NCBI GenBank assembly: GCA_963711795.1
Contig: CAVQFD010000005.1
Coordinates: 580,271-644,270, forward strand
DNA length: 64,000 bases
Source of the DNA: an uncultured Acidobacteriota bacterium
Lineage (GTDB): Bacteria > Acidobacteriota > Vicinamibacteria > Vicinamibacterales > CAVVIG01
Direction of reading: 5' to 3'
The notes beneath the pieces were generated by a model. That model was not told where the DNA came from, did not search any database, and was given only the letters and a program-made list of their open reading frames with translations. A program made the translations under genes and the position numbers. Below, one piece after another: positions 1 to 52,271 of this stretch. How positions within the stretch are numbered: position 1 is the stretch's first letter; each line of letters begins with the position of its first letter.

Positions 1-1058
1 CGCCGTACCGCCGGGCGCTCATGCATCGGCATACCGTCCTCAACAAGGGCTTGACCAGCCTGTCCAATTGGCTGACCGACTTGAGCCTCAGTGATGTCGA
101 GACCTGCTACAAGGCGATCAATACCGAGCTCCTGAAGTCGATCCCCATTCGATCGAACGACTTCCGTTTCGAGATCGAAGTGACCTTCAAGCTGGCCAAG
201 AGGCGCGCCCGGATCTTCGAAGTCCCGATTCGCTACTCTCCTCGCTCGTACGAGGAGGGCAAGAAAATCCGTGCGAAGGACGGGCTTCTCGCGATTGGCG
301 CGATGTTGAAGTATTTCCTGATCGACGACATGTATGCCGAGGACGAGTACGGCTCGCACATCCTCGCCGACCTTCAGGACGCACGCCGGTTCAACCGCTG
401 GATGGCCGACACCCTGAGGCCCTACCTCGGCGATCACGTCCTCGAAATAGGCGCCGGCATCGGCACATTGACGGCTCAGTTCATCCCGCGCGACTTGTAT
501 CTGGCGAGCGACATCAATCCGCACTACCTGCACTACCTGAGCGCCTATTCTGTTGGAAAGCCCTACTTGCGGGTCGCCAAGATCGACGCAGGGCGCCCCG
601 AGGACTTCGCCGGCCTGTCGGGCCGCTTCGACACCGTGCTGATGGTCAACGTGCTCGAGCACGTGCCGGACGAGGCGATGGCCCTCCGTCACGTCCACGA
701 GGCGCTTGCTCCAGGCGGCCGGGCGGTGATCCTGGTGCCCCAGCACCCGAAGCTGTTCAACTCACTGGATGTTGCGCTCGAGCACAGGGAGCGTTACACG
801 GCGGACGGCCTGAGGCGATCGCTCGAGCGCAGCGGCTTCGAGGTCGAACGAATCTTCGATTTCAACAGGACGTCAGTGCCCGCATGGTTCACGAGCGGGT
901 CCATCTTCAGGCGCAAGGGGTTCTCGCGCATCCAGTTGAAAGTGCTCGAAGTGGCCATGCCCGTCGTCCGCCGGTTCGACTTCCTGTGGCCCTGGACCGG
1001 GCTGAGCGTTATCGGCGTAGGGCGCAAGCCGGCGACAGCCGATCAGCCAGGCACCTGA
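1..1058 (+). CDS. Glycosyltransferase family 2 (C-terminal part) fused to a class I SAM-dependent methyltransferase; 5' end lies outside the window
   Basis: ORF 21..1058 is open back to base 3. 'FRFEIEVTFKLAKRRARIFEVPIRYSPRSYEEGKKI' matches the conserved C-terminal region of GT2 polyprenol-phosphate sugar transferases. 'VLEIGAGIGTLT' (SAM motif I) and 'DTVLMVNVLEHVPDE...LAPGGRAVILVP' are Methyltransf_11/12-type motifs. Confidence 0.75.
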   Translation, partial: PYRRALMHRHTVLNKGLTSLSNWLTDLSLSDVETCYKAINTELLKSIPIRSNDFRFEIEVTFKLAKRRARIFEVPIRYSPRSYEEGKKIRAKDGLLAIGAMLKYFLIDDMYAEDEYGSHILADLQDARRFNRWMADTLRPYLGDHVLEIGAGIGTLTAQFIPRDLYLASDINPHYLHYLSAYSVGKPYLRVAKIDAGRPEDFAGLSGRFDTVLMVNVLEHVPDEAMALRHVHEALAPGGRAVILVPQHPKLFNSLDVALEHRERYTADGLRRSLERSGFEVERIFDFNRTSVPAWFTSGSIFRRKGFSRIQLKVLEVAMPVVRRFDFLWPWTGLSVIGVGRKPATADQPGT

Positions 1059-1062
1059 TCGG

Positions 1063-1892
1063 TCAGACCGTTTCCCACGGGTCAGGCCCGGAAACGATCT
1101 CGTCGAGCCAGGAAGGGTGCCACCTCCGGAGTCGCTCGTTCCGCTGGAAGCAGTCCGTGGCTGACTGCTCGGGAAGCAGGTCTTCGCCGATCCCCTTCCG
1201 GACAAAGAACGCATTGAATCCGAGCGACTGCACGCCGATCAGGCGATAGCCCAGCGCGCGTCCCAGCCCGACGAAGGCCGGGAGCGACGCACCACATCGA
1301 TACGGCCGGACCAGAGATCCAGGCGGTAGTTCTCCTCGTACAGACCGTGTCACGCTCGCTTCCGGCCCACAGTGCGGGTTGAACTCAAGTACCACCACCC
1401 TGGGCAAGATCGTGCCGAGTGACTTCCAGATCCAGTAGTCGTTCCCGTCGAGGTCAAGTGAGAGGAGATCAATCGCTCCTCCGAATCCGTGCTTCGTCAC
1501 GAGATCGCACACGTTGTCGGTCGTGACCCACGCGGTCGCCATCTGGGGCGGTGAAACCCAGGTATTACGGTTGGCCGCGTAGAACGAATTGCCACGGGCG
1601 ACGAGGTCGGCGTCGCCGTCCACCAGGAGAGCCTGCCATCCGTGATTGATAATCAGGTTCGCGGCGTTGCACTCGATCCCATCGCTGGCGCAGATCTCGA
1701 CGGCCCGGCGGTTGGTCGTGCCGAGCAGGGAAAACAAGTACAGAGAATGCCATCCTCGCCGTTTTGCGAGTAGCAGCGAAACTCGACATCGGCCAGATCG
1801 GGGAGAGACGCTTTCCGCCGAGCGAGATCCTGATAGTGAAGCTTCAGCAGTACCTGAGCGACCTGCGAGTCCGCAGGGTTGGGCATGGACAT
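1063..1892 (-). CDS. FkbM-like methyltransferase-family protein of the polysaccharide locus (one frameshift as assembled)
   Basis: ORF pieces 1653..1892 and 1063..1737 join if one base is restored near 1738-1748: '...FRCYSQNGEDGIL|(L)FSLLGTTNRRAVEICASDGIECNAANLI...LLSLDLDGNDYWIW...VVVLEFN'. The layout resembles Methyltransf_21/FkbM-type proteins. The family call is tentative. Confidence 0.5.
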
Positions 1893-1902
1893 GATCAGAA
1901 GT

Positions 1903-2674
1903 CTAGTGGGTCGAGGCGAGCGCTGCTTCGCTCGCGATCAGCTGATCGTAAAATGCCAGGCCATCTTCGACGCCGCCGTCGAAGGTGAGCCGCCCACGGT
2001 CGAGCACGCAGACGCGGCGGCAGATTGCCCGGATCGAGGACGTCGCGTGTGACACGAACACGATGGTCTTGCCCTGCTCCATGAACTGCCGGACCGTCGC
2101 CACGCACTTCTCCTGGAAGATGATGTCGCCGACCGCGAAGATCTCGTCGAGGAGGAGGATGTCGGGGTCCAGATTGGCGGCGATTGCGAACCCCAGCCGC
2201 ATATGCATCCCCGAGGAGTAGTTCTTGATGGGGACATCCATGAAATGCTCGAGCCCGGAGTACTCCGCCACGGCCGGGTAGATCTTCTCGATCGCGGGGA
2301 TGGTCAGCCCTTGAATCGAGGCATTCAGGAACACATTCTCGCGGCCCGTCAACTCCGGGTGGAAGCCGACGCCCAGCTCGATCATGGACGCTATCCGCGC
2401 ACCACGAGCGACGAGCATCCGGCCATTGGTTGGCCGATGGATGCCGGCGATGAGCTTCAACAACGTGCTCTTGCCCGATCCGTTCCGCCCGACGAGGCCG
2501 ATCACGTCGCCATGGTTGATCTGCAGCGATACGTCTCCGCACCGCCCAGAATTCCTCCACCGACTGCCGCTTGCTCGGGTGCAGCAGGCCCAGAAAGCGG
2601 ACCTTCAGCTCGGACGACGCATTGTGACGCAGGAAGAAGCGCTTGGAAACGCCTCGAGCTTCGATGACCGGCAT
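1903..2674 (-). CDS. wzt: Polysaccharide/O-antigen export ABC transporter ATP-binding protein (one frameshift as assembled)
   Basis: ORF 1903..2505 has Walker A 'GRNGSGKST', signature 'YSSGMHMRLGFA', Walker B 'ILLLDE' and H-loop 'VSHA'. The N-terminus 'MPVIEARGVSKRFFLRHN...EEFWAV' lies in another frame (inside ORF 1895..2776) and joins near 2535. ATG 2674..2672 overlaps the restored wzm stop by 1 nt (TGATG). Confidence 0.85.
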
Positions 2675-4004
2675 CAAATCAGCTCCGCGAATCGATCCTC
2701 GAAGGTGAGGAAGAGAAGTGACCCCACGACGAATGCGCCGACGGCGTGGCCATTGCCACGAGCCACACGGTCGCATCCGGCCACTGGCGAAAGTAGAACA
2801 CCTGTTGATAGGCGACGATGTAGGGCGACATCGGGCTCAGGAGAATCAGCAGCCGGAGACGGTCGGGCACCTGCTGTAGCTCATAGATGATAGGTGTCGT
2901 CCAGAACATCACCGACAGGGCAATCTCCAGCAGGTGGCGCACATCACGGAAGAAAGCTGTTCCGGTCGAGAGAATGAGCGCGACACCGACGGTGAAGAGA
3001 ACCTGCAGCGCTAGAAACACCGGGAACAGCAGCATTGGCGCGACGAACGGCACATCGTACCAGTAGAGCATCGCCGGCAGAAACACCGCAATCGTGAGCA
3101 GATACTGCGCGAGATTGAAGAGCACCGTCGCAATGGGCAGGATGGCCCGTGGAAAGAGGACGCTCTTCAACAGCCCGCTGTTGTCCACGATTGCTCCGGT
3201 GGACATCGCGGCCGAGCCGGCAAAGAAGACCCAGGCCAGTTGCCCAAGCATCAGGTAGAAGACGAAGCCCTCGCCCTTCACGCGAAGGATGTAGGTAAAG
3301 GCCGTCGTGTAGACCACGATCATCAGGAGCGGATTGACGAGGGACCACAAGAACCCGAAGACGGACCCGCGGTATTTCAGCTTGATGTCCTTGAGCACCA
3401 GGTTCTTGAGCAACGCGCGGAATCGGTAGAGGTTGCCCACGACCCCTCGGAGCGTCGTCATCTGGTCGGCACGATCAATCAGGTCATCAGACCAGATGGC
3501 TGCCACTTGACGAGCACGCGCCCGCTCGCGAAGGACCCAGAGACCCCTCCACCCGATGGCTGAAATTGCCAGGAAGATCGCATCGGCAAGAAATGCGACG
3601 CGAGACAACCCCTCGAAGCCCACGGTCAGGCCGAGGATCGCGATCGCGGCAACAGTGCCGATTACGATCCCACTTCCCACTCGAAGGAGCCAGTCGACCT
3701 TGGCTCGTGCCGTGTAGGCCCGAAGCGCGGCAAGCGACGCCATCTGAGCGGCCACCACAACGGGCAAAGTCGCCCACGCCCTCGGAAGGAATAAATCGAG
3801 GCTGCCGTCTTGAAACCGGAGCCAGTAGGCGGTCAGGTACCGCAGAGACGGCGAGCAAGGCATCCAGCGTGGCTGCCAGCCACGCGGCCGGCCGGTGCGG
3901 GACGTGCGAGTCGCTGGCAGGCCCACCGGATTCCCTGGCCTCCACGACGGCACCTTTCGGTTCAGGCTGATCTGGAACGGACAAACCCTAGAAGAATAGC
4001 GCAC
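2674..4004 (-). CDS. wzm: ABC-2 type polysaccharide export permease with an N-terminal 4-TM extension (one frameshift near the 3' end)
   Basis: 'LVLKDIKLKYRGSVFGFLWSLVNPLLMIVVY...' and six TM segments fit the Wzm/TagG/KpsM class. The typical C-terminus 'AVGAFVVGSLLFLTFEDRFAELI*' (stop TGA 2676..2674) is reached only after a 1-nt shift near 2757-2762. A canonical-length start would be ATG 3461 (MTTLRG). The frame stays open to 4004 and encodes an extra hydrophobic domain. Confidence 0.8.
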
Positions 4005-4061
4005 CCGCCGCTTTCCGTGTGGGGGACGCGCGACTGGGGCACGGTTGTCGTTGCGGACAGC

Positions 4062-5147
4062 TCAGCGCCCCGGTACACCGTTGAGCGGAACGTCGATGCT
4101 GCCGCCCCATGTCCGAACGGAGCCGGAACCGGTCGCCGTGAGCAGGAGGTACCAGGCTCCGGTCGAAGGGCGGAGATCGCGACGTCCGTCCGGCCGTCGC
4201 CATCATAATCGGCAGGGACCGGCGTATCGTCGCCGCCACCCCAGGTGTACGACAGCCCGCTCACACTTCCCGACCGAAGGATGTACCACCCGCCTTCTGA
4301 ACGCCGAAAGACGGCGATATCGGCCTTGCCATCTCCGTCGTAGTCGGCCGGAACAGGGGTGTCGATGCTGCCGCCCCAGGTGTACGTCGCACCGCTGTTG
4401 GTTGCGGATCGCAGGATGTGCCACGAGCCGTCCGTCGGACGGAAGACCGCGACGTCAGCGCGCCCGTCACCGTCGTAGTCCGCCGGGACGGGCGTGTCAA
4501 TGCTGCCGCCCCACGTGTACTGCATGCCGGTGCCAGTTGACGACTGCAGGATGTACCGCACGCCGGTGGAAGGCCGAAACACAGCGATATCAGTCAGGCC
4601 ATCACCGTCGTAGTCTGCGGCGACGGGGACATCGATGCTCCCGCCCCAACGATGTGCCGCTTCTGTGTGCGACGCCGACCGGACGATGTGCCGGATTGCC
4701 GGTGGACGGCCGGAACACAGCGCGGTCCATCAGTCCGTCGCCGTCATAGTCGCCGATGGCCGGAACATCCTCGGCGGCGCCCCAGGGCGTATGAGTGATG
4801 CCCACGCGCGTCGTCGACGGGTCGATGAACCATGTTGCGGTGGACGGGCGAAACACCGCGATATCGGCGAGGCGGTCTCCGTCGAAGTCTCCGGGCGCCG
4901 CCTGCCCCACAGTCGTGGAAGCGTCGTAGGACGGCGCACTCTCGCCGAAGTCGTTGAGGGCCGAAACGACATAGCGGTACCGGTGGCCTCGCGTGACCGT
5001 CGTGTCAACGAATTCAGCGGCTGTGATGCCAGCGGCGACAAGTGACGTGACCCCGGCGGCATCGACGCGGCGCACATTGTAACGAGTGGCCGCCGCGCCC
5101 GCTGACCACACGATTCGAACTCCCTGCGCCTGGTTTATGGCGCGTAC
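4062..5147 (-). pseudogene. FN3 domain plus six DxDGDG (FG-GAP/VCBS-like) repeats; in frame with the upstream GloVer gene across one TGA, and has two frameshifts
   Basis: It shares the frame of 5148..7379 and is separated only by TGA 5150..5148 plus 12 sense codons. The FN3-like part is 'VRIVWSAGAAATRYNVRR...YRYVVSALNDFGESAPS'. Six ~45-aa repeats follow: 'DYDGDG(R/K)xD(I/V)AVFRPSTGxWYIL...TWGGSxDxPVP'. Frameshifts lie near 4700 and 4170. The restored end is '...WGGSIDVPLNGVPGR*' with stop 4064..4062. Confidence 0.7.
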
Positions 5148-7379
5148 TCAGCCTGGGGCTCGCGCCGCAACTCGCAGTCGAAACACCATGCCGCCGCCCA
5201 ATCGCCCCGAGCCCCAAGCCGTGCCATACATGTCGCCGTCGGCGGCTTGAACGATATCTGCGCCCCAGAGTGAAAACTCCGCGGTCGGGTGTGCGAAGAC
5301 CGTGGCCTGGCCAAGGGTTGTGAGCCGGATGAGGCGCCCCGTGACATCGGGGTAGTACAAGTTTCCGTCCGATGCCTCCAGGACTGATCCCTCGGGTGCG
5401 GCCTCCTGCCAGCTGAAGTTGGCGCGGACCGTCACCTGTCCGCCGGGCGCGATTGAGAACACGAGGCCTCGCGCTCCCTTGAAACTGGAACGCGTCGATC
5501 CGTGGATGCCATGTCGCCCCGCGCTGATCGCCGGCAGGGTCAGGCAGCTGTAGTCGCCATCGAATAGGTCAAGGGCGTACGCGGTGGTGACCAAGCCGGT
5601 CACACTCATCCGAAAGACTCGCCCGGGACACCGCCCTCCAGCCGAGCCATTGTAAAAGTCGGTTCCGGTACCGTAGAGGAAACCGTCCGCCCCGAGGACG
5701 AGCGATCCCGGATGTCCAATGTCCGCCCCTCCAGCGAAGGATCGAAGCAGGGTCAGCGTGCCACCCGCCGTCACCTGGTACAGGGTTCCCAGTCCATGAG
5801 CACCGCCTCGTTCGGTCCCTCCGAAGAACGTTCCATCCGATGTCTCCACGAGAGCGGTCGAGGGGTTAGCCCCATGACTCGGCGTTTCTCCGAACGAGTG
5901 CAGCACAACGACGTCGCCCGAGACCGACAGCCGGAAGACGGTACCGAGATCGTGAGTGCCGCCGGCATAGGTCACACCATAAAAGTGTCCGTCCCGACCA
6001 GCTGTCAGCGCAGACCTGGGAGACGCCCCGTCGAAGCCAGCGAACGAATGCAACACTTTGACGTCGCCCGACGGAGCGATCCGAAACAGGGTGCCAAGTC
6101 CGTAGTTCCCGCCCCCGGCTGTGATGCCGTAGAAGTATCCGTCAGCGCCCTGCACGAGCGGCGCCCTTGGGTGGGCGCCGCCGCGGGGGGCCTCGAATTC
6201 GCCGCGCGCCGTGAATTCGCCGGTTGCGCTCAGAACGAACACGGAGGCCTGCGGACCCTCGTCACTAGAAGAGGCCGTGCCCCAGAACGTACCGTTGTCG
6301 GCGCGGGCGAGAGAATCCGCCTTCCCCCGGGCAAACTGGTACAGCGTAGTCATGGAAGACGAATCCGTGGTCAAGTGGAACGCGAACCCGTGGCCGTAGG
6401 CTCCCCCTGTCGACGTGGTACCGACGAGTGCGTCGCCCCCAGCAGTGAGCGCCAGGGCGTCAATGCGCCCGGTCTTCTCGGGCGCGAACGTGTGGACGCG
6501 TTCGGCAACCATCGCCGGGAAGCCAACAATCCTCCGAAGCCGATACAGGGACGCGGACCCATTCTTAACCGTGGCGACGAAGAGCAATCCATTTGGCGCA
6601 GCAATCACCGCCCCGTTTGGGTTTTCTCCACTGTCGAACGTCGACACCACCTCCACCCTGCCGTTCGGGGCTAACCTGTAGACAGTGCCCACGAGGAACC
6701 CGTAGGTTGTTCCGTAGAAACTGCCATCAGGGCTCCGTGACAACGGCCCGTGCGGATAGGCGCCCGAAATGTACCCGCCCTCAAACGAGTGAACCAGTTC
6801 GATGTTCACTCCATCAGTTCTGAAAATGGTTCCGAAGTCGTACGCCCCGCCGTTTGCCGCGGAGCCGTAGAGATACCCGTCGTCACCGAGCGCCATCGCC
6901 GCTCGTGGATGAGCGCCATTGGGTCCGGAAAACGATGGACCCACGCGAACGACCTCGTCCGAGCCGAACGCGTAGATGGTTCCGAGCCCTTGAGATCCTC
7001 CGCGCTCGGTTGTGCCGTAGTAGCGGCCATCAGGCCCGAGCACGACTGCCGCCAGAGGTGTCGACCCACCCTCGCCCCCGGGGAATGAGTAGACCGGCTC
7101 CGGCGAGCCGCTGGGTCCGATCTTCAGAACCGCACCATGTCCATGGAGCCCGCCCCGCGCGGTCGTTATGTACGAGCCGCCTCCAGGGGTAGCGGTGATG
7201 CTCGACGCAGGCGCGCCGTGGTCACCGCGACCATCGAACTCGTAAAGGACGTCGAAGGGTATCTGAGCTGGTACTGGGGTTGCGAGGGTGAAGCATGCAA
7301 CCGCAGTCGCGACCGAGATTACGTACCGCAGGGCCCAATTGTAGCAGGTGGATCCCGATGGCTCGTTGACCATGTCCAA
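5148..7379 (-). CDS. Secreted GloVer tandem-repeat protein ('choice-of-anchor' repeat family)
   Basis: The hydrophobic N-terminus is 'ALRYVISVATAVACFTLATPVPAQ'. More than 10 degenerate ~45-aa repeats carry the core '(L/F/Y)YG(T/S/V)TxxGGxxxxGT(I/V/L)(F/Y)', for example 'YYGTTERGGSQGLGTIYAF', 'FYGVTYAGGTHDLGTVFRL' and 'FYGITAGGGNYGLGTLFRI'. The 2.2-kb frame is intact. Confidence 0.7.
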   Translation of the reverse strand: MDMVNEPSGSTCYNWALRYVISVATAVACFTLATPVPAQIPFDVLYEFDGRGDHGAPASSITATPGGGSYITTARGGLHGHGAVLKIGPSGSPEPVYSFPGGEGGSTPLAAVVLGPDGRYYGTTERGGSQGLGTIYAFGSDEVVRVGPSFSGPNGAHPRAAMALGDDGYLYGSAANGGAYDFGTIFRTDGVNIELVHSFEGGYISGAYPHGPLSRSPDGSFYGTTYGFLVGTVYRLAPNGRVEVVSTFDSGENPNGAVIAAPNGLLFVATVKNGSASLYRLRRIVGFPAMVAERVHTFAPEKTGRIDALALTAGGDALVGTTSTGGAYGHGFAFHLTTDSSSMTTLYQFARGKADSLARADNGTFWGTASSSDEGPQASVFVLSATGEFTARGEFEAPRGGAHPRAPLVQGADGYFYGITAGGGNYGLGTLFRIAPSGDVKVLHSFAGFDGASPRSALTAGRDGHFYGVTYAGGTHDLGTVFRLSVSGDVVVLHSFGETPSHGANPSTALVETSDGTFFGGTERGGAHGLGTLYQVTAGGTLTLLRSFAGGADIGHPGSLVLGADGFLYGTGTDFYNGSAGGRCPGRVFRMSVTGLVTTAYALDLFDGDYSCLTLPAISAGRHGIHGSTRSSFKGARGLVFSIAPGGQVTVRANFSWQEAAPEGSVLEASDGNLYYPDVTGRLIRLTTLGQATVFAHPTAEFSLWGADIVQAADGDMYGTAWGSGRLGGGMVFRLRVAARAPG

Positions 7380-7592
7380 GTGAAGCCAGAATCGCCGGCT
7401 TTTTGGCCCGGCCAGACTCCCTGGACGGCGAATTGAGCAATCCCAATACCCGGCTGCAGTCCGGTGTTCTCAACAAAACAGCGGCAATATTCGGAAAGGC
7501 CAGCTCTTGAGGAAGACTAAAGTCATCAAAATAGGTGACTTCATGTTTTAGGGACGTAACTTTTCACCTGAGGCAGCGCCGTTCCAGACGCC

Positions 7593-9961
7593 TCACGGGC
7601 TGCTGGAAGGAAGCCTGGGAAGGCCAATGTCAATGCTTCCACCCCATGCCTGCATGACGCCTGTGCCGGTGGCAGAACTCAGGATGTACCAGGCGCCTGT
7701 CGAAGGGCGAAAGACGGCGATGTCAGTGAGCAGGTCGCCGTCGTAGTCGGCGGGCACAGGCGTATCGATGCTCCCGCCCCAGGTGAATGTGGCGCCCGTT
7801 CCGGTTCTCGACCGCAGGACGTACCGCGCACCGGTTGAGGCTCTGAACACTGCGATGTCGGCCCGTCCGTCGCCATCGTAGTCGCCGGGCACAGGCCGGT
7901 CGATGCTGCCCCCCCATGTGTCCTGGATCGACCCTGAGGTCGAGCGAAGGAGATACCAGGCGCCTGTTGATGGCCGAAACACACCGATGTCGGTCCTGCC
8001 GTCTCCATCGTAGTCGGCCGGCACCGGCGTATCGATGCTCCCGCCCCAGGTGTAATGCACCGACCCCACACCCGAACCCAGGATGTACCAGGATCCCGTT
8101 GACGGGCGGAAGACGGCGATATCGGTGCGTCCGTCACCGTCGTAGTCGCCCGGCACGGGGATGTCGATGCTTCCACCCCAGGTGTAGGTTGCGCCGGAAC
8201 CTGTTGCGGAACGGAGGATGTGCCACTGGCCATTCGAAGGTCGAAACACGGCGACGTCGGTTCTGCCGTCGCCGTCGTAGTCCCCGGGAACCGGAATATC
8301 CGCGCCGCCACCCCAGGTGTGTTGAATGCCTCCCCCAAGGACAGATGAGAGGATGTACCACGCCCCGGTCGAGGGTCTGAAAACGGCGACGTCTGCCCGC
8401 ATGTCGCCGTCGAAATCCGTTCGTGTGGGGGTGACCGGGGGCCTCGGCGCAGCCGCCTGGGTGATGGTCACAAGCTGGCCCGCGATCGCAAGAGTCCCGC
8501 TCCGTTGGCTCCCGGCGTTGATTGAGACGGTGTACCCACCGTCCCGCTCGCGGTTCCATTCGATCCGCTCGTGACCGCGACAACCGACGGTTGGTTGCTG
8601 ACAGCGCTCCAGGCGCAGCCCGCCTGCGCCACGACCGACACCGTTCCGGCTCCGCCGCCTGGTCCAAAAGCCGCCGCTGTCGGACTCACGCTGTAAGTGC
8701 AGGCACTCTGTCGGAAATTCGCGACCGCGCCGGAGGTACCGTTCAGTGCCAGGGCCCCGTCCTCGGTCGCAGTCCCCGCCACCGTACCTGTGCCCGGGAA
8801 GTTCGCCAGCGGCGTCGAGAAGATGGCCCGCCGCCCACAGGCCGGTCCTGGCCCGGGGCAGGCATAGGCCATCACATCACGAGCGACTCCTGGCACCGCA
8901 TAGCCGAACGCGTAGGGGAATGAGGGCGAACCTCCCCCCGCATTCGCGCGATCGTGCTGCAGTCCCATGTTGTGGCCGATTTCGTGCGCCAAGGTGAGGT
9001 TGGCATTCGCGCAGTCCCAGTAGACGACGTTATATGCGTAGGGCGCGAACGACGCGTTGACACTGTTCTGTGACATCAACCAACCGATGCCGCAGGCATT
9101 CGTTTCGTTCGTGATAAGCGTGACGACGTCTGCCCGGAACTGATCGCGGAGCGCGGCCACTGTTTCGAGCTGACCATCCCCCGCGTAGGTCAGGTGGTCC
9201 AGGCTCGTGCCAAGGTCGCCGGTCTCGCTGTAGGGTATTTCGCCATAGTGCACGAGACGGAAGCGATGCGTCACGTTGGCATTGGCGAGCGCCAGGTTGG
9301 CGTTGTTCACGGCGCCAATCAGGTCCCCGTTCATCTGGGCAGCGCCGCCGATCGCTGCACGGGCCGCCGGGGTGTAGAGCACCATCAGATCGACGAAAGC
9401 ATTGGTATCCATCGCCGTGCTTGGCGCAGGTGCAGACAGTGCCCGGGCGACCGGTGGAATGCGGGGCAGACCTTCCGGCGGGAGCGCACTCTGATCCACT
9501 TCGGTTACAACGTGTGTTGTGGAGGCGCGGCCACGGCGCACGAGAAACACACGCCCGTCCACGACGACCCGTCCTGAAAGCGTGTCGCCCACGATGGTGA
9601 GGCTGGCCTCCCCCGCGTGACCATCGACCAGTGCGCCCGCCATGTGGGTTTGCACACGATCCCTGTCGATCAAGGAGACTGCGACACGTACAGCGAGGTT
9701 CTCTGTCAGCGGCAGGTCCAGCGTCGAGCGTCGGTCCGCAGCCTGGATTAGTTCGCCGAAGCGGATCCTGACCGACAACCCTTGCGGACTGTCGGCTGCC
9801 ACGGCGGCCGCCTCTGCCCGAACGGACTCCCAGGCAACAACCACATCGCCCCCTGGCGGCTGCTGTGCGGCCTCGGCGCGCGCGGGCACGCCAGTGGAGA
9901 CGAGCGCAAGAAAGGCGCAGACGCGACGGAATGTAAGGATTCTCACGGTTGCTCTGACCAT
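7593..9961 (-). CDS. Secreted metzincin zinc metalloprotease fused to an Ig-like (BACON-type) domain and six DxDGDG repeats (one frameshift as assembled)
   Basis: The signal-like start is 'MVRATVRILTFRRVCAFLALVSTGVPARA' and the active site is 'HEIGHNMGLQHD' (HExxHxxGxxH/D). The Ig-like part is 'CTYSVSPT...VSVVAQAGCAWSAVSN...YTVSINAGSQRSGTLAIAGQLVTITQ'. ORF 8468..9991 joins ORF 7593..8471 by a 1-nt indel at the C-run near 8535-8537. Confidence 0.8.
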
Positions 9962-10058
9962 GCGGACGCGGCAGGTGCCTTCAGCGGCCACACCCAGACT
10001 ATCGGACGCTCGGCGACGGCCTCGCAGAGGGGGAGCGGGTCGTTTGCTTGTTTTCGCC

Positions 10059-11171
10059 CTACGGGAGGGGCACGTCGCCGTTCCCGCCGAAAACCACGCT
10101 GGAACTGGAACCTGTCGAGCTCAGGATGTACCAGGTGCCGGAGGAGGGCCGGAATACCGCGACATCGACCTTGCCATCGCCGTCGAAATCAGACGGCACC
10201 GGGGTGTCGATGCTGCCACCCCACGTATACGAGACGCCTCCGGATGTGGAGGAACGCAGGATGTGCCAATCGCCGGTCGATGGCCGGAAGACCGCAACGT
10301 CCGTTTTCCCATCGCCGTCGTAGTCGGCCTGGACGGGGGTATCAATGCTCCCCCCCCAGGTGTACTCGACGCCGGTCAGGGTGTTGGACCGCAGGATGTA
10401 CCACTTGCCGGTCGAAGCGCGGAACACGGCGGGGTCAGTGCGCCCATCGCCGTCGTAGTCGCCTTGCGCCGCGGTGTCAATTGACCCGCCCCAGGTGTAC
10501 TGACTGCCCGTGCCGGTTCTCGAGTTCAGGATGTACCAGGTTCCCGTGCTAGGCCGGAACACGGCGATATCGGTTCGCCCGTCGCCGTCGTAATCGCCCG
10601 GCACGGGTGTGTCAATGCTTCCGCCCCAGGTATAGGTGACGCCCGACACGGTGCTCGACTGGAGAATGTACCAAGTCCCGGTGGTGCGCCGGAACACGGC
10701 GATATCCATCTTGCCGTCGCCGTCGTAGTCGCCCTGAACCGGCGTGTCAATCGAACCGCCCCACGTATGGCCGTTGTTCGAACCCAACACGTACCACTTT
10801 CCGGTCGAAGGCCGAAAGACGCCCACATCAGCGCGCCGATCGCCGGTGAAGTCTCCGGCAACAGAAAACGGGACCCCGACTCGCCTGGAGACCTCCATCG
10901 AGGGCGCGCTCAACACACCCGCTGTGTTGTAAGCCCGGACGACGAAGTAGTACGCCGTGCCGTCGATGAGGTTCGTGAACTGGTGCGTCGTCTGGTTGCC
11001 CACGTTGACGCTGGCGACGTACGCCCCCGACTGAGGGCCGTAGTAGAGAACGTAACCGCCAAGGTTTGGCTCGGTGTTGGCGTCCCATGCGAGACGCAGC
11101 GTCGCGGCGTCAGCCGCGCCAGCCCACAGCAACACGAGTACACTCAAACCCCATGCGGGGAAGCTCTTCAT
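10059..11171 (-). CDS. Secreted FN3 domain plus six DxDGDG (FG-GAP/VCBS-like) repeat protein
   Basis: The signal peptide is 'MKSFPAWGLSVLVLLWAGAADA' (ATG 11171). The FN3 part is 'LRLAWDANTEPNLGGYVLYYG...YYFVVRAYNTAGVLSAPS'. Six repeats of 'DYDGDGxxDxAVFRxxTGxWYILxS...YTWGGSIDTPV' follow. The frame is intact. Confidence 0.8.
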   Translation of the reverse strand: MKSFPAWGLSVLVLLWAGAADAATLRLAWDANTEPNLGGYVLYYGPQSGAYVASVNVGNQTTHQFTNLIDGTAYYFVVRAYNTAGVLSAPSMEVSRRVGVPFSVAGDFTGDRRADVGVFRPSTGKWYVLGSNNGHTWGGSIDTPVQGDYDGDGKMDIAVFRRTTGTWYILQSSTVSGVTYTWGGSIDTPVPGDYDGDGRTDIAVFRPSTGTWYILNSRTGTGSQYTWGGSIDTAAQGDYDGDGRTDPAVFRASTGKWYILRSNTLTGVEYTWGGSIDTPVQADYDGDGKTDVAVFRPSTGDWHILRSSTSGGVSYTWGGSIDTPVPSDFDGDGKVDVAVFRPSSGTWYILSSTGSSSSVVFGGNGDVPLP

Positions 11172-11351
11172 TGCGGTCATGGCCCAAGCCCAAGGCAAGG
11201 CATATGCCGCCTCGTCCGTGTGGGCTTTGGCTCGCAAGTTATTGATTTAAAGACAGTTATTTTCTAGAGCGGAGCCGGAGATATCAATGGCTCGTCCATA
11301 TCCGATACAGATTTGTGGGGTGGCTTACACGCTTGGTGCGGAACCGCACCG

Positions 11352-12344
11352 ATGACGATCGCCGTCCTCATCGTCAATTGGAACGGGGGAGGCCTGCTTG
11401 CCCGATGCCTGGCCGCCCTCGCCGCACAGCGCCGGCGACCTGATCGGATCATCGTGGTCGACAACGCCAGCACGGACGATTCGCTGGAGCGGGCGGGGGA
11501 CTTCATGGCGAGCGTTCAGCTGCTTCTCCTCCCGACCAACGCGGGGTTTGCCCGGGCGAACAACCTGGGCGCGAGCGCCGCGCGAGACGTTGACGCCCTG
11601 GCGTTGGTCAATCCCGACGCGTTCCCGGAGCCCGGCTGGCTCGAGGCACTCGAACGTGCCGCCGAGCGCGAGCCCGGCGTTGCGGCGTTCGCAAGCCAGC
11701 TGCGGCTGGACGCCGCTCCCGACTCCCTCGACGGTGCTGGCGACACGTACCACGTTTCCGGTCGAGCCTGGCGAAACGGACACGGCGCCCCGGCGGCCAG
11801 TTGGCCTGCGCGGGATGCAGAGGTCTTCGCCCCGTGTGCCGCCGCCGCTCTGTACCGCCGGTCGGCATTCGAAGAAGCCGGCGGCTTCGACGAGGACTAC
11901 TTCTGCTACTTCGAGGATGTGGACCTGGGCTTCCGGCTGCGTCTCCTCGGCCACCGGACTCTTTACGTTCACGACGCTCTCGTCCGCCATGTCAGCTCGG
12001 CCCTCGGCGGGTACCGCAGTGATTTCGCCGTGTACCACGGCGAGCGGAACATGGTTTGGACCTTCGTCAAGAACATGCCCGCGCACCTCTTCTGGCTCTA
12101 TCTGCCCCAACACATCGCCCTCAACCTCGCTGCGCTGGCCTACTACCCCTCGCGAGGCCAGGGGCGCGCCGTCCTGCGCGCCAAGTTCGACGCGCTGCGC
12201 GGCATGACGCGAGTGCTCAGGCAGCGCGCGGCGGTTCAGCGAAGCCGGCGCGCCAGCCCCCGCGCGCTTCACCTGGCGCTGAGCCACGGGTTCGCACGTC
12301 CGTACCTCGCGCGCTACGGCGGTGGATCGTTTCCCCGGCCGTAG
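11352..12344 (+). CDS. Glycosyltransferase family 2 (rhamnosyltransferase-like)
   Basis: 'IAVLIVNWNGGGLLARCLAALAAQ...IIVVDNASTDDS', 'LVNPDAF' and 'YFCYFEDVDLGFRL' are typical GT2 (WbbL-like) motifs. I chose ATG 11352 (MTIAVLIVNW). The track ORF starts at 11313. Confidence 0.8.
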   Translation: MTIAVLIVNWNGGGLLARCLAALAAQRRRPDRIIVVDNASTDDSLERAGDFMASVQLLLLPTNAGFARANNLGASAARDVDALALVNPDAFPEPGWLEALERAAEREPGVAAFASQLRLDAAPDSLDGAGDTYHVSGRAWRNGHGAPAASWPARDAEVFAPCAAAALYRRSAFEEAGGFDEDYFCYFEDVDLGFRLRLLGHRTLYVHDALVRHVSSALGGYRSDFAVYHGERNMVWTFVKNMPAHLFWLYLPQHIALNLAALAYYPSRGQGRAVLRAKFDALRGMTRVLRQRAAVQRSRRASPRALHLALSHGFARPYLARYGGGSFPRP

Positions 12345-12363
12345 GTCGCGGTACAATCCCGAC

Positions 12364-14240
12364 GTGACCTCGCTGCAGTCGACGGTCGCCGTCGTTCTCG
12401 GGCCCTTCCTGTTTGCGTTCGCCTTCTCGCTGGCGCTCGTGCCTGTTTCGCGTCTGCTCGCCCTGCGATTCGGCTACGTCGCGCACCCGCGCGAAGATCG
12501 GTGGCATCGCCGGCCAATCGCCCTCCTCGGCGGCGTGGCGATTGCCCTGACGCTTGCTGCGGGCCTGGTGCTCTTCCGCTCGACTTCAGGAATCGTCGTC
12601 CTGGTGGCGTGCGCAGGCCTGATATTCGCCATGGGCCTGGTCGACGATGTGGTCTCGCTGAAGCCGTTCACGAAGCTCGTGGGCGAGATCGCGATCGCAT
12701 CCATCCTGCTTGTACTTCGGCTACCGCCTGAACTGGACGACATCGCTCACGCTCGACACGATGCTGACGCTCGTCTGGGTGGTCGGCATGACCAACGCGT
12801 TCAACCTGCTCGACAACATGGACGGCCTCTGCGCCGGGCGTGGCGCTGATTGTCGGCGGGGCACTCCTGTTCGGCCTGGGGCCCGTGCAGCCGGCCACGC
12901 CGGCCTTCCACGAAGCGCAGTACCTGGCGCTGCTTGTCGGCGCGACCGCGGGTTTTCTCGTCTACAACATCCACCCGGCTTCAGTGTTCATGGGCGATAG
13001 CGGCGCACTGCTCCTCGGCCTGAGCTTTTCCGCGCTCACGCTGAATCACGCACAGGACGGCGCCGTGCGATCGAACCCGTTGTCGATCGTCGCGGCGCCT
13101 CTGCTCGTGCTGCTCATTCCTATCTTCGACACGACGCTCGTGACAGCGTCGCGGCTGCTGTCCGGGCGTGCCGCGTCACAGGGTGGCCGCGATCATTCGT
13201 CGCATCGCCTGGTGGCCGTCGGGCTGTCGGAGCCGGCGGCGGTGGCGCTGCTGTGGCTCCTGGCCGCCATTGGCGGCGGTTTGGGCCTGGCCGTCGACTA
13301 CCTCAACTTGAGCTGGTCGAGCCCGGCCGCCGCGCTCTTCCTGCTGGCGATGGTCATTTTTGCGGTGTACCTGTCGCGCATTCGCGTGTACGACGACGAG
13401 GTTGCGATCGATCGGGCCACGTCGACGCCGATTGCCGTGGACTTCATGTACAAGAAGCAGGTCGCGGAGGTCCTCCTCGACCTGTGCCTGGTCACGCTCG
13501 CCTACTACTCGGCCTATCGCCTTCGTTTCGAGGGCGACGAGTTCGGCCTGGGTTTCGTGACGTTCTATCAATCGCTGCCGCTGGTGCTGCCGGCACAGAT
13601 GCTGGCCCTCTTCGCGGTCGGGTTCTACCGTGGGGTCTGGCGCTACTTCGGGCTGATGGACACGGTGGTCATCGCCAAAGGCGTGGTGCTCGGCACCGGC
13701 GCGGTGATGATCATCATGCCGTTCCTGCCCGGTTTCGCGGGGTATTCCCGGACCGTGTTCGTCATCGATCTCGTGCTGCTGGCCGCGCTGCTGGTGGCGT
13801 CGCGCGTGTCGTTCCGTCTGATTGGCGAGTTCCTGCAGCGCAACCGGAAGACCGCGCGGCGGGTCGTGGTGTACGGCGCCGGTGGCGGCGGCGCGCTGGC
13901 CGTGCGCGAGTTGACGGCCGCGGAAGAGACACCCTACAGAATCCTTGGTTTTGCCGACGACGATCCGAGGAAGCAGCGGATGCGGGTCCAGGGCTACCCG
14001 GTGCTTGGCGGCTACGACTCGGTGAGGTCTCTGGTGGAAACGAGCGCCGTTGACCTGGTGGTCATCAGCGCGCGTCTCATCGACGTCGATCGGCTCCGAT
14101 CGCTCGAGGCACTCTGCGGCGATCACGGTGTTGCACTGTCGAGGCTGCGCGTCGGGCTCGAGCCGATTGTGATGAGCGACGACGATCCGACCGCAGGCAA
14201 CGCGGCGCAGGCCCCGCCCTACAGGCTGCGAAGCATGTAG
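12364..14240 (+). CDS. WecA/MraY-family polyprenyl-phosphate HexNAc-1-phosphate transferase fused to a CapD/WcaJ-type 4-TM plus Rossmann-like domain (two frameshifts as assembled)
   Basis: PNPT motifs are '[11 protein letters not shown]', '[12 protein letters not shown]', 'VFMGDSG' and 'PIFDT'. ORFs 12322..12849, 12710..13000 and 12840..14240 join by 1-nt indels near 12708 and 12838. The C-terminal half is '[10 protein letters not shown]...' (4 TM) followed by '[19 protein letters not shown]...ILGFADDDP...GYPVLG'. Confidence 0.75.
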
Positions 14241-14247
14241 CAGGATC

Positions 14248-15024: not shown

Positions 15025-15029
15025 GAGTT

Positions 15030-15230
15030 TTACCCTCCGCCGACGAAGTTCACGATCTCCACTTCGTCGCCTTCGCCGACTTCGGTTGTGGCAAAGGCCA
15101 GGCGCTTGACGACGACCAGGTTGTGCTCCACGGCCACTCGCCGAGGGTCGATGTCGAGCGAAGACAATAGAGCTGCAACGCTCATCGGGCCGTCCAGCTG
15201 GAATGGCTCACCATTCAGTTTGATGTGCAC
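15030..15230 (-). CDS. thiS: Sulfur carrier protein ThiS
   Basis: About 66 aa, ending in '...VNFVGGG*' 3 nt (15027-15029) upstream of the thiG start. It begins '[10 protein letters not shown]...'. GTG 15230 is an inferred start. The longer track ORF to 15317 would overlap the upstream gene. Confidence 0.8.
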
Positions 15231-15253
15231 GACAACAGCACATTCTATCCGCG

Positions 15254-17485: not shown

Positions 17486-17545
17486 GGTCTCGGCGTCCCG
17501 TCCTCGTGGATCGTCGTGTCGCGAACCACTCGGCGGGACCCTCGC

Positions 17546-18352: not shown

Positions 18353-18384
18353 GTTCGTATTCTATAATCTCGTGCAGCGTATAG

Positions 18385-44921: not shown

Positions 44922-44946
44922 AATTGCGAACTTCCCTGGAGGCCTT

Positions 44947-47290: not shown

Positions 47291-47307
47291 GCCGTGTCTC
47301 CTTTTTT

Positions 47308-48692: not shown

Positions 48693-48699
48693 TCGGTCG

Positions 48700-52269: not shown

Positions 52270-52271
52270 GC

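What the first reader, a model, noticed from the sequence alone, without database searches (positions are those of the whole stretch)
4062..11171. Three secreted proteins with different heads share one C-terminal six-repeat DxDGDG propeller module, placed directly upstream of wzm-wzt
Seen: three co-oriented genes end in the same ~270-aa module. The module is six ~45-aa repeats, 'DYDGDG(R/K)xD(I/V)AVFRPSTGxWYILxS....(Y)TWGGSxDxPVP', preceded by an Ig-like spacer (FN3 in two genes, BACON-like in one). The N-terminal parts differ:
- 10059-11171 carries only a signal peptide.
- 7593-9961 carries an HExxHxxGxxHD metzincin protease.
- 4062-7379 carries a GloVer repeat domain.

None ends in a recognisable PEP-CTERM, LPXTG or T9SS-type tail. 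The ends are '...GGNGDVPLP', '...IDIGLPRLPSSSP' and '...DVPLNGVPGR'. All three lie inside an ABC-transporter-dependent polysaccharide locus, in the same orientation as wzm-wzt.

Established: GloVer proteins are called 'choice-of-anchor' because homologues swap their C-terminal sorting or anchor domains. Six- or seven-bladed propellers are common lectin folds.

Inference: the shared module may be a surface-retention (lectin-like, Ca-dependent) domain. It could dock diverse passenger domains onto the glycan exported by the adjacent Wzm/Wzt system. That would be a non-covalent surface-display system. The repeats are also similar at the DNA level between paralogues, which would allow recombination or gene conversion.
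Basis: partly seen in the sequence, partly recalled or inferred. Interest (0 to 1): 0.7.

Follow-up and report, generated by a model that had tools for sequence, protein, structure and literature searches.

The report
Shared lectin-like propeller in glycan-export locus
Three secreted proteins of a soil acidobacterium end in the same very common six-bladed, lectin-type propeller, and a protein carrying this propeller sits upstream of this kind of polysaccharide exporter in every related locus sampled, so it may tie secreted proteins to the cell's own sugar polymer, though this is untested.

Summary
The three co-oriented minus-strand genes and their shared C-terminal module of six repeats of about 45 aa are real. 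As deposited, only gene C is an intact ORF. B has one frameshift; A has an in-frame TGA and two frameshifts. A 98.7%-identical sister contig reads through two of these four lesions, so they look like assembly noise.

The module is ordinary FG-GAP/VCBS, with 16,753 clusters at E<=1e-30. AlphaFold models it confidently (pLDDT 94). Its best solved match is the six-bladed UmbA4 lectin bound to teichuronic acid.

Linkage to wzm/wzt is asymmetric. Only 3 of 80 generic module loci have wzm/wzt nearby. But 5 of 5 independently chosen loci of this long-Wzm family carry a propeller gene within about 2 kb upstream of wzm. Gene C's orthologues (signal peptide, FN3, propeller) usually sit divergent from a GT2 inside glycan loci. 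B and A are insertions specific to the window's close relatives.

All three propellers share a rare 'WGGSID' loop, kept at the protein level through varied codons. There is no sign of gene conversion.

Best reading: a glycan-binding anchor or organiser, analogous to Vibrio Bap1/RbmC. It is a new variant of a known kind, and the function is unproven.

The parts
10059..11171 (-). Gene C: signal peptide (MKSFPAWGLSVLVLLWAGAADA), FN3 domain, then six-blade FG-GAP/VCBS propeller. It is the only one of the three that is an intact ORF in the window.
   Evidence: ORF and translation; fn3 E 2.4e-7 and FG-GAP_3 E 2.3e-25. Orthologues have the same architecture and locus position.
10062..10874 (-). Propeller module of C (271 aa, six blades).
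   Evidence: Blade parsing; AlphaFold2 pLDDT 94.1, pTM 0.90; Foldseek top hit is the UmbA4 six-bladed lectin.
7593..9961 (-). Gene B: signal peptide, reprolysin-like metzincin (HEIGHNMGLQHD), BACON-like spacer, six-blade propeller. The reading frame is broken once near 8538.
   Evidence: The gene is an intact 799 aa in sister contig L001, and the window lacks one G of a G-run.
7593..8420 (-). Propeller module of B (six blades).
   Evidence: FG-GAP_3 E 5.9e-30; blades listed.
4062..7379 (-). Gene A: signal peptide, GloVer repeat domain, FN3-like spacer, six-blade propeller. It is interrupted by a TGA at 5148-5150 and by frameshifts near 4700 and 4175.
   Evidence: TIGR03803 E 5e-110; three-frame translations. 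L001 reads GAG at the TGA and reads through into the FN3-like spacer and blade 1.
4062..4898 (-). Propeller module of A (six blades after repairing two single-base lesions).
   Evidence: FG-GAP and FG-GAP_3 hits on both fragments.
2679..4004 (-). wzm: ABC-2 permease with a conserved N-terminal membrane extension of about 180 aa ('long Wzm').
   Evidence: ABC2_membrane E 1.6e-12 over residues 199-404. The family of proteins about 425 aa long shows 63-94% identity in soil metagenomes.
1903..2690 (-). wzt: ABC ATPase, with a single-base frameshift near its 5' end in the window.
   Evidence: Three-frame translations; TagH/Wzt-like NCBIfam hits, E 1e-52 to 2e-45.
11313..12344 (+). GT2 glycosyltransferase, divergently transcribed from gene C. 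It is the most constant neighbour of C-type genes.
   Evidence: Glycos_transf_2 E 4.7e-18. A homologous divergent GT2 is present in 18 of 26 C-type metagenome loci that have enough upstream sequence.
11259..11287 (-). Promoter-like site upstream of gene C. It is the only such match in 1000-12000. No terminator-like site lies in the C-B, B-A or A-wzm gaps.
   Evidence: Consensus scan only, so this is weak evidence.

Best explanation
**What it is.** The shared module is a six-bladed beta-propeller of the FG-GAP/VCBS superfamily, with a Ca-binding-type loop in each blade. This is a lectin-type fold.

**How it sits in the locus.**
- Gene C is a secreted FN3-propeller with no enzyme head. It is the commonest occupant of this slot in the polysaccharide locus built around a long Wzm/Wzt exporter and a GT2, in this Vicinamibacteria-like acidobacterial clade.
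- In the window's close relatives, a metzincin protease (B) and a GloVer adhesin-like protein (A) have been inserted between C and wzm. Both carry the same flavour of propeller.

**Most likely mechanism.**
- Shown: the architecture, the conserved synteny, and protein-level constraint on one loop.
- Predicted: the fold.
- Inferred: the propeller binds a glycan. The most economical candidate is the polymer made and exported by this locus. C would then organise or cross-link that polymer. A and B would be held on it without a covalent bond. This is the 'double-sided tape' logic of Vibrio cholerae Bap1/RbmC.
For: - **Fold.** pLDDT 94.1, pTM 0.90. The best PDB match is 9oee_A, the UmbA4 six-bladed lectin with bound teichuronic acid (E 1e-11, TMq 0.73). 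Psathyrella lectins follow at TMq 0.61-0.62. UmbA4 is also the only PDB sequence hit of the module profile with E below 0.1 (E 1.2e-8; biology from PMC13274773).
- **Linkage from the exporter side.** Five of five long-Wzm loci, chosen only for contig length, have a propeller gene ending within about 2 kb upstream of wzm. The background is about 0.1 extra module genes per 10 kb.
- **C-type orthologues directly upstream of wzm-wzt.** Seen in L082, the P0062 contig, L093, L119, L122 and L129.
- **Divergent GT2.** Present in 18 of 26 C-type loci.
- **Same order elsewhere.** The C-B-A order recurs in JGI contig L086.
- **Shared loop.** 'WGGSID' occurs in 14 of 18 blades of A, B and C, against 4 of 419 blades in 70 other modules. 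It is encoded by varied synonymous codons, including AGC and TCG/TCA for Ser. By homology this loop lines the sugar pocket in PVL and tachylectin (PMC8023676).
- **Anchor-type partners.** Among the 120 best GloVer homologues, the accompanying Pfam domains are SLH in 8, dockerin in 4, T9SS CTD in 6 and FG-GAP_3 in 2.
- **Precedent.** The Bap1/RbmC propeller binds the cell's own VPS (PMC10102183).
Against: - No binding data exist, and the ligand is unknown.
- The module is extremely common: 16,753 clusters at E<=1e-30.
- 77 of 80 generic module loci have no wzm/wzt within 10 kb.
- Many C-type genes sit in glycan loci without wzm/wzt. Only 3 of 27 with enough downstream sequence have wzm next door.
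- The closest solved relative binds a foreign glycan, not a self glycan.
- In the related contig L086 the 'GSI' loop is much less uniform, so the signature may reflect shared ancestry rather than specificity.
- Bap1 shows no detectable sequence relation to the module.
- Whether A and B are functional in this strain is uncertain, because of the stop and frameshifts.
Confidence: 0.4

Rival explanations
1. The propeller is a lectin or CBM-like module that targets non-self material, such as competitor or prey cell walls, or plant and fungal polysaccharides. It would deliver hydrolases and adhesins to substrates. Its position next to wzm/wzt would reflect co-regulation of envelope and secretome genes, not ligand identity.
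For: - The closest solved relative, UmbA4, recognises teichuronic acid of other species (PMC13274773).
- The module is appended to proteases, GDSL lipases, EEP nucleases, phosphoesterases and PLD in thousands of proteins.
- 77 of 80 module loci are not near exporters.
Against: - All 5 long-Wzm loci sampled have a propeller gene.
- The locus-resident protein is usually head-less (FN3 plus propeller only), which is odd for substrate targeting.
- The pairing with a divergent GT2 is conserved.
Confidence: 0.25
2. Gene C's family is an assembly or export accessory of the glycan pathway, not an anchor. It could be a periplasmic or outer-face factor that receives, measures or hands on the Wzm/Wzt-exported chain. 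A and B would simply be neighbours that share a common domain.
For: - Gene C is immediately upstream of wzm and possibly co-transcribed. No terminator-like site lies between C, B, A and wzm.
- The position is conserved in L082, L168, L170, L093, L122 and L129.
- No OPX/PCP-type gene was seen in the loci inspected.
Against: - C-type genes also occur in flippase-type or transporter-less glycan loci, and in a tandem array of at least four FG-GAP module genes with no glycan genes within 10 kb.
- At the same slot, some genomes have a GloVer-propeller or other propeller proteins instead of C.
Confidence: 0.12
3. A, B and C are acceptor glycoproteins, decorated with the glycan built by the locus. This would resemble S-layer glycoprotein genes that lie next to wzm/wzt-containing slg clusters. 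The Ser/Thr-rich blade loops would be the O-glycosylation sites.
For: - Every blade has a Ser/Thr-rich loop, such as 'SSTVSG' or 'SRTGTG'.
- The related locus L082 encodes a Wzy_C (ligase or O-OTase-type) protein and PMT_2.
- The window has a PMT_2-like gene at 53210-54709.
- From my own knowledge, not checked here: slg clusters of Geobacillus and Paenibacillus lie next to the S-layer gene.
Against: - No ligase gene lies in the window's locus between 1 and 14.2 kb.
- The Ser/Thr loops are a family-wide feature of thousands of modules that are not near glycan loci.
Confidence: 0.08
4. The proteins have no functional relation to the locus. The adjacency is incidental for a very abundant domain, and A and B are decaying pseudogenes.
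For: - The family is huge, and the generic survey gave only 3 of 80.
- A has a stop and two frameshifts, and B has one frameshift.
Against: - The exporter-side survey gave 5 of 5, against a background of about 0.1 per 10 kb.
- wzt, the downstream methyltransferase-like gene and a gene at about 20188 are also frameshifted. The sister contig carries different homopolymer indels and reads through B and through A's stop. The lesions therefore look like long-read consensus errors.
Confidence: 0.1

Closest known systems
UmbA4 C-terminal six-bladed beta-propeller lectin of Streptomyces umbrella toxin particles (PDB 9oee; family 6BP-4)
   Same: - Best structural match (E 1e-11, TMq 0.73) and the only PDB sequence hit of the module profile with E below 0.1 (E 1.2e-8).
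- Six blades with conserved Dx[DN]xDG-type loops.
- C-terminal position on a secreted multidomain protein.
- Binds a cell-envelope glycopolymer.
   Different: - About 20% identity, with longer blades.
- UmbA4 sits behind a trypsin-like domain and a bulb lectin, and works inside a UmbA/B/C toxin particle against other species.
- Its pocket residues differ between blades, whereas here one loop is nearly identical in 14 of 18 blades.
- Nothing resembling the umbrella-particle context (trypsin-like domain, bulb lectin, polymorphic toxin) was found among the window ORFs scanned. umbB and umbC were not searched for specifically.
Vibrio cholerae Bap1/RbmC matrix adhesins
   Same: - Secreted proteins in which a conserved beta-propeller anchors different passenger domains to the cell's own exopolysaccharide.
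- From my own knowledge, rbmC lies inside the vps/rbm matrix gene region.
- This is the mechanism I consider most likely here.
   Different: - Eight-bladed propeller with an inserted beta-prism.
- No detectable sequence relation to the module.
- From my own knowledge, VPS is made by a Wzx/Wzy-type pathway, not by Wzm/Wzt.
- The passengers are adhesive domains, not enzymes.
FG-GAP/VCBS beta-propellers in general (Pfam PF13517 and PF01839; VCBS supercluster of Pereira and Lupas 2021), including Psathyrella PVL/PAL lectins, the TcB gate propeller and integrin alpha
   Same: - Clear HMM membership.
- Ca-binding-type loop in each blade.
- Signal peptide and Ig-like companion domains, as described for the 'VCBS core' (PMC8023676).
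   Different: - Six short blades (41-46 aa between motif starts) rather than seven blades of about 60 aa.
- Extreme C-terminal position, ending on the last strand.
SLH-domain and other 'choice-of-anchor' C-terminal modules on GloVer (TIGR03803) proteins
   Same: - Other GloVer-family proteins carry anchor-type domains (SLH, dockerin, T9SS CTD) where A carries the propeller.
- From my own knowledge, SLH is itself a non-covalent anchor to a cell-wall glycopolymer.
   Different: - Unrelated folds.
- No anchoring role has been shown for the propeller.

Membership tests
FG-GAP / VCBS beta-propeller (PF01839, PF13517) | Profile HMM score above Pfam's gathering cut-off | tested here: met
   FG-GAP_3 scores 89.4 bits (C), 104.1 bits (B), and 61.4 and 29.8 bits (A fragments), against a cut-off of 26.9.
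FG-GAP / VCBS beta-propeller (PF01839, PF13517) | Dx[DN]xDGxxD Ca-binding-type loop recurring once per blade | tested here: met
   All 18 blades have a D-x-[DT]-G-D start and a conserved D at position 9. Fourteen of 18 are fully canonical DxDGDGxxD. The exceptions are the first blade of each module and B6. Metal binding itself was not tested.
FG-GAP / VCBS beta-propeller (PF01839, PF13517) | Beta-propeller fold | tested here: met
   AlphaFold2 gives pLDDT 94.1 and pTM 0.90, with three or more strands in each of six repeats. All the top Foldseek hits are propellers. This is a prediction only, and I could not inspect ring closure in coordinates.
Six-bladed beta-propeller lectins of UmbA type | Structural and sequence similarity to a solved member | tested here: met
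   9oee_A: Foldseek E 1.2e-11, TMq 0.73; profile E 1.2e-8.
Six-bladed beta-propeller lectins of UmbA type | N-terminal trypsin-like domain and a UmbB/UmbC umbrella-particle context | tested here: not met
   The heads are FN3, a metzincin and GloVer. No trypsin-like or toxin-type domain was found in the window ORFs scanned. umbB and umbC were not searched for specifically.
Six-bladed beta-propeller lectins of UmbA type | Carbohydrate binding | not testable with these tools
   This needs glycan arrays, ITC or pull-downs with purified polymer.
Bap1/RbmC-type EPS-anchored matrix proteins | Propeller binds the producer's own exopolysaccharide | not testable with these tools
   There is only contextual support: 5 of 5 long-Wzm loci carry a propeller gene.
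Bap1/RbmC-type EPS-anchored matrix proteins | Homology: eight-bladed propeller with a beta-prism insertion | tested here: not met
   The module has six blades and no insertion. No Bap1 or RbmC chain appears among PDB sequence hits even at E<=10.
GloVer 'choice-of-anchor' repeat proteins (TIGR03803) | NCBIfam model above cut-off, with a variable accompanying anchor domain among homologues | tested here: met
   359.1 bits against a cut-off of 44, in 9 stretches. Homologues carry SLH, dockerin, Por_Secre_tail or FG-GAP_3.
Metzincin (reprolysin-like M12B) peptidase | HExxHxxGxxH(D) zinc motif and a family HMM above cut-off | tested here: met
   HEIGHNMGLQHD is present. Reprolysin_5 scores 56.8 bits against a cut-off of 27. 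The Mep72 equivalog is far below its cut-off (112 against 645). The Met-turn was not examined.
Wzm/Wzt ABC-transporter-dependent glycan export | ABC-2 permease followed by a dedicated ATPase, within a locus of glycosyltransferases | tested here: met
   - ABC2_membrane scores 47.9 bits against a cut-off of 26.9.
- The ATPase gives TagH/Wzt-like hits, E 1e-52 to 2e-45, below the equivalog cut-offs.
- A GT2 and a WecA-like/CoA_binding_3 transferase lie alongside.
- The polymer and its fate (LPS, EPS or glycoprotein) are unknown.
Known C-terminal sorting signals (PEP-CTERM, LPXTG, T9SS CTD) | Match to the corresponding models at the C-terminus | tested here: not met
   No such NCBIfam or Pfam hit for the C-terminal parts of A, B or C.
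Integrin-alpha-type seven-bladed propeller | Seven FG-GAP blades of about 60 aa | tested here: not met
   The module has six blades of 41-46 aa. Integrin alpha-M gives E 0.6 only.

The most novel reading that the evidence does not exclude
The six-bladed propeller could be a general non-covalent anchor of the acidobacterial secretome, a further member of the 'choice-of-anchor' set. Each lineage's propellers would be tuned, through the strand-D-to-strand-A loop, to the glycan exported by its long-Wzm/Wzt locus. Dozens of exo-enzymes and adhesins per genome would then be displayed on the cell's own polymer. The head-less FN3-propeller encoded in the locus would act as the organiser of that polymer.
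Probability: 0.2. Interest if true: 0.75.

Novelty: new variant of a known kind. Interest (0 to 1): 0.45.

Why it matters
Acidobacteria are abundant soil bacteria. They are thought to invest heavily in extracellular polymers and secreted hydrolases, yet almost nothing is known about how their exo-proteins are kept at the cell or in the matrix.

If this very common propeller is the retention device and the Wzm/Wzt polymer is its receptor, two things follow. The architecture of thousands of 'VCBS repeat-containing' hypothetical proteins would be explained. And a concrete pair would be available for biochemistry: recombinant gene C protein and the locus's glycan.

If instead the propeller targets foreign glycans, the same proteins become candidates for substrate or prey recognition. 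Either answer is reachable with one binding experiment.

Tried and rejected
- **Gene conversion or recombination between paralogues: rejected.** In-register module nucleotide identity is 65-67%. Blade pairs show 56-75%. The longest exact run shared between genes is 17-19 nt. The shared loop is written in different synonymous codons.\n- **Generic linkage of the module to wzm/wzt: rejected.** Only 3 of 80 GTDB-genome loci have wzm and wzt within 10 kb, and none of those are adjacent.\n- **wzm as the constant neighbour of gene C's family: rejected in favour of the GT2.** The counts are 3 of 27 against 18 of 26.\n- **Using sister contig L001 to confirm the A-wzm junction: failed.** L001 departs from the window at 4755, inside blade 2 of A, and ends 520 bp later. 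The adjacency was supported instead by orthologous loci.\n- **Naming the source organism: failed.** An exact-sequence look-up (P0121, 100% identical, on a 947-kb NCBI/ENA contig) returned no record name. Taxonomy rests on the names of homologues (Vicinamibacterales and Acidobacteriota).\n- **'Same genome, same loop' test: inconclusive.** Paired loci from five MAGs and several multi-gene loci show only a loose genome-level tendency.\n- **Kelch_2 and Vgb_lyase Pfam hits: dismissed.** I treated them as cross-matches of propeller repeats.\n- **Sequence relation to Bap1, PVL or TcB in the PDB: none found.** Only UmbA4 is found by sequence, and PVL/PAL by fold.
Full report
**1. What is in the sequence**

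All the genes in the finding lie on the minus strand.

- **Gene C** (10059-11171, or 11237 from the first TTG) is an intact ORF. It has a signal peptide (MKSFPAWGLSVLVLLWAGAADA|ATL), an FN3 domain (Pfam fn3, E 2.4e-7), and six repeats.
- **Gene B** is not one ORF in the window. A reprolysin-like metzincin (HEIGHNMGLQHD; Reprolysin_5, E 4.6e-15) runs 8468-9991 in one frame. The six repeats run 7593-8471 in another frame.
- **Gene A** is in three pieces. A GloVer domain (TIGR03803, E 5e-110, 9 stretches) ends at an in-frame TGA at 5148-5150. Two frameshifts follow, near 4700 and 4175.

After repair, each protein ends in six blades of 41-46 aa between motif starts. The consensus is DYDGDG[KR]TD[IV]AVFRPSTGxWYIL-x8/9-WGGSIDTPVP.

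No PEP-CTERM, LPXTG or T9SS model matches the C-terminal parts. The spacers are only weakly recognisable: BACON E 8e-4 in B and fn3 E 0.11 in A.

**2. Are A and B broken genes?**

An ENA contig (L001, ERZ25039504 contig_18441) matches window 4755-21158 at 98.7% nucleotide identity.

- The two sequences differ by 12 indel events. Eleven are single bases, several of them in short nucleotide runs.
- In L001, B is an intact 799-aa gene. The window lacks one G of a GGGG run at about 8538.
- The window's TGA is GAG in L001, so there the GloVer domain reads straight into the FN3-like spacer and blade 1.
- Conversely, L001 has its own frameshift in gene C and others in A.
- In the window, wzt, the gene downstream of wzt, and a gene at about 20188 are also frameshifted.

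The simplest reading is noisy long-read consensus in both assemblies, not pseudogenisation. Only accurate resequencing can settle it.

**3. What the module is**

- **Sequence family.** It is FG-GAP/VCBS by Pfam (89-104 bits against a cut-off of 26.9).
- **How common it is.** A profile of 26 modules finds 16,753 clusters (50% identity level) at E<=1e-30 and 42,231 at E<=1e-10, among 1.84 billion representatives. In 88 of the best 150, the best-matching copy ends within 20 residues of the C-terminus.
- **Where it occurs.** The named hits in the word-indexed search are mostly Acidobacteriota (Vicinamibacterales, Pyrinomonadaceae, Blastocatellia). The other domains in those proteins include reprolysin, astacin, matrixin, subtilase, GDSL lipase, EEP nuclease, PLD, lamin-tail and choice-of-anchor V.
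- **Predicted fold.** AlphaFold2 on the C module with this alignment gives pLDDT 94.1 and pTM 0.90, with three or more strands in each of six repeats.
- **Structural relatives.** Foldseek against the PDB puts 9oee_A first (E 1.2e-11, TMq 0.73). This is the six-bladed C-terminal lectin of Streptomyces UmbA4, solved with teichuronic acid bound between and on its blades (PMC13274773). The Psathyrella lectins PVL and PAL follow at TMq 0.61-0.62.
- **Sequence relatives in the PDB.** UmbA4 is the only PDB sequence with an E-value below 0.1 (E 1.2e-8).

So 'six-bladed, Ca-loop, lectin-like' is supported as a predicted fold and by analogy. It is not supported as a demonstrated activity. I could not inspect coordinates to verify ring closure.

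**4. DNA-level similarity**

- Modules A, B and C are 62-66% identical in protein and 65-67% identical in DNA.
- Individual blades are 56-75% identical in DNA.
- The longest exact run shared by two genes is 17-19 nt.

This gives no support for recent gene conversion.

One loop is strikingly uniform. 'WGGSID' occurs in 14 of the 18 blades. It occurs in only 4 of 419 blades from 70 other modules, all four in one protein, P0030. It is written with varied codons: GGC/GGG/GGA/GGT, AGC/TCG/TCA, ATC/ATT and GAC/GAT. The constraint therefore acts at the protein level.

In the blade nomenclature of Pereira and Lupas (PMC8023676), this is the loop from strand D of one blade to strand A of the next. That loop helps form the sugar pocket in tachylectin-2 and PVL.

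The related contig L086 is less uniform. The signature may therefore be young or lineage-specific.

**5. Surroundings**

- **Downstream of A.** wzm is an ABC-2 permease with an N-terminal membrane extension of about 180 aa. It is followed by wzt, a broken FkbM-like ORF, and a methyltransferase on the other strand.
- **Upstream of C.** A GT2 is divergently transcribed, followed by a WecA-like/CoA_binding_3 transferase. ThiG marks the end of the locus.
- **Transcription signals.** No terminator-like site lies in the C-B, B-A or A-wzm gaps. The only promoter-like match is upstream of C. This is weak evidence.
- **Rest of the window.** It is housekeeping and contains no further module.

**6. Is the link to wzm/wzt real?** I ran three surveys.

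**(a) Generic module.**
- The sample was 80 loci from GTDB species genomes, about 1.2 Mb in total.
- Only 3 have wzm and wzt within 10 kb, and none are adjacent.

**(b) Gene C's family (signal peptide, FN3, six blades).**

From protein look-ups:
- P0024 (62% identity, L082) and P0062 (55%) both show GT2, then FN3-propeller divergently, then a long Wzm (445 and 426 aa), then Wzt.
- P0009 lies in a flippase-type glycan locus.
- P0032 lies in a tandem array of at least four FG-GAP module genes, with no glycan genes within 10 kb.

From JGI metagenome contigs found through the FN3 part:
- A homologous divergent GT2 is present in 18 of 26 loci with at least 1.5 kb of upstream sequence.
- wzm follows directly in only 3 of 27 loci with at least 2 kb downstream. 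L119 adds a further case on a shorter contig.
- Elsewhere the downstream genes are epimerases, aminotransferases, methyltransferases, and GT1 or WbsX transferases.
- L086 has a GT2 96% identical to the window's and repeats the C-B-A order.

**(c) Exporter side.**
- The long Wzm is a large, well-conserved family, 63-94% identical to the window's.
All five have a propeller gene ending within about 2 kb upstream of wzm:
  - L168: C-type.
  - L170: C-type.
  - L167: a GloVer-propeller, that is, A-type.
  - L169: a 674-aa FG-GAP protein.
  - The P0337 contig: a 1094-aa FG-GAP/Ig protein across the GT2.

- The background, measured in the flanks of module genes and therefore biased upward, is about 0.1 further module genes per 10 kb. 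Five of five is far beyond chance.

**Conclusions from the surveys.**
- The link is real but asymmetric. Every long-Wzm locus sampled in this clade keeps a propeller protein beside it. Most propeller proteins live elsewhere.
- Gene C is the commonest resident of this slot in related loci.
- Inserting B and A between C and wzm is a feature of the window's close relatives (window, L001, L086).

**7. The 'choice-of-anchor' argument**

Among the 120 best homologues of A's GloVer head, 8 carry SLH, 4 carry dockerin, 6 carry a T9SS CTD and 2 carry FG-GAP_3. The propeller is thus one of the anchor-type domains that accompany GloVer heads. From my own knowledge, SLH is itself a non-covalent glycopolymer anchor.

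**8. Mechanism**

- **Shown:** the architecture, the synteny, and protein-level loop constraint.
- **Predicted:** a six-bladed lectin-type fold.
- **Inferred:** the propeller binds a glycan, most economically the polymer made by this locus. The head-less gene C protein would organise it. The protease B and the GloVer protein A would be held on it.

This is the 'double-sided tape' logic shown experimentally for Vibrio cholerae Bap1 and RbmC. Their shared propeller binds the cell's own VPS directly (PMC10102183; see also bioRxiv 10.64898/2026.08.03.742583).

The main rival is targeting of foreign glycans or substrates, as in UmbA4 and as in CBMs on hydrolases. The generic distribution of the module favours that rival. 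Lesser rivals are an export or assembly accessory role for C, A/B/C being acceptor glycoproteins, and incidental adjacency.

**9. Comparison and novelty**

- Membership in FG-GAP/VCBS is unambiguous.
- The module is not an umbrella-toxin component. It has no trypsin-like domain, and nothing resembling the umbrella-particle context was found in the window.
- It is not a homologue of Bap1/RbmC. It has six blades rather than eight, no beta-prism, and no detectable sequence relation.

As far as my literature searches show, two things are not described: the conserved pairing of a secreted FN3-propeller with long-Wzm/Wzt-GT2 loci in Acidobacteria, and the local recruitment of enzyme and adhesin heads carrying the same propeller flavour.

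I rate this a new variant of a known kind, of moderate interest. It becomes high interest only if self-glycan docking is shown and turns out to be general.

Noticed in passing
window 2679-4004 (-): The Wzm permease carries an N-terminal extension of about 180 aa that looks membrane-spanning, ahead of the ABC-2 domain. The extension resembles the N-terminal membrane region of WbaP/CapD-type proteins. This 'long Wzm' (about 391-476 aa) is a large conserved family in soil metagenomes, 63-94% identical to the window's. In several relatives its Wzt partner is 477-487 aa, but only about 233-271 aa in the window, L082, the P0062 contig and L170.
   Followed up: partly
window 1740, 2560, 4175, 4700, 5148-5150, 8538, 20188: Single-base indels or a stop codon interrupt at least five genes: the FkbM-like ORF, wzt, A, B and a large oxidoreductase-like gene. 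The 98.7%-identical contig L001 has a different set of single-base indels. Both assemblies therefore look like unpolished long-read consensus.
   Followed up: partly
window 4755; L001 16419-16938; L086 contig end at 10163: Sister contig L001 stops matching the window exactly inside blade 2 of gene A. It continues with unrelated, lower-GC sequence for 520 bp to its end. JGI contig L086 also ends inside A's module. Either the repeated modules break assemblies, or an insertion or rearrangement sits in gene A in that strain.
   Followed up: no
window 12344-14240 (+): The WecA-like (Glycos_transf_4) plus CoA_binding_3 transferase is 466-483 aa here and 469 aa in L001. It is 594-621 aa in L082, L083, L167 and L170. 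Its N-terminal part may be lost or frameshifted in the roughly 450-bp gap after the GT2.
   Followed up: no
window 1063-1890 (-): The ORF downstream of wzt has no Pfam or NCBIfam hit. Its translation has FkbM-methyltransferase-like motifs ('SQNGEDGIL', 'VEICASDGI'). The gene in the same position in L082 is Methyltransf_21. A homologue (62% identity) lies 8 kb from the C-type gene in L097.
   Followed up: partly
window 44800-53000 and L085 12276-21323: The window's run of genes (transketolase-like E1, LTXXQ, response regulator, DAP dehydrogenase-like, MoCF) has the same Pfam families, in a similar order, as the flank of L085. In L085 at least four FG-GAP module genes sit beside the MoeA gene. 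The window has none at that position.
   Followed up: no
window 15254-17485 (-) and 17546-18352 (-): A 743-aa PA14-domain protein and a DUF3108 protein lie just beyond ThiG. They are conserved in L001. They could be further secreted or envelope proteins next to the glycan locus.
   Followed up: no
L167 3867-5710: In another long-Wzm locus, the slot between the GT2 and wzm holds a GloVer-repeat protein fused to five or six FG-GAP blades. It has no FN3 and is split by a frameshift in that assembly. The GloVer-propeller combination has therefore arisen, or been kept, next to wzm in more than one lineage.
   Followed up: partly
L089 1411-7754: Two NHL-repeat proteins of about 1000 aa lie beyond the GT2, upstream of a C-type gene. 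One ends with an FG-GAP_3 match.
   Followed up: no
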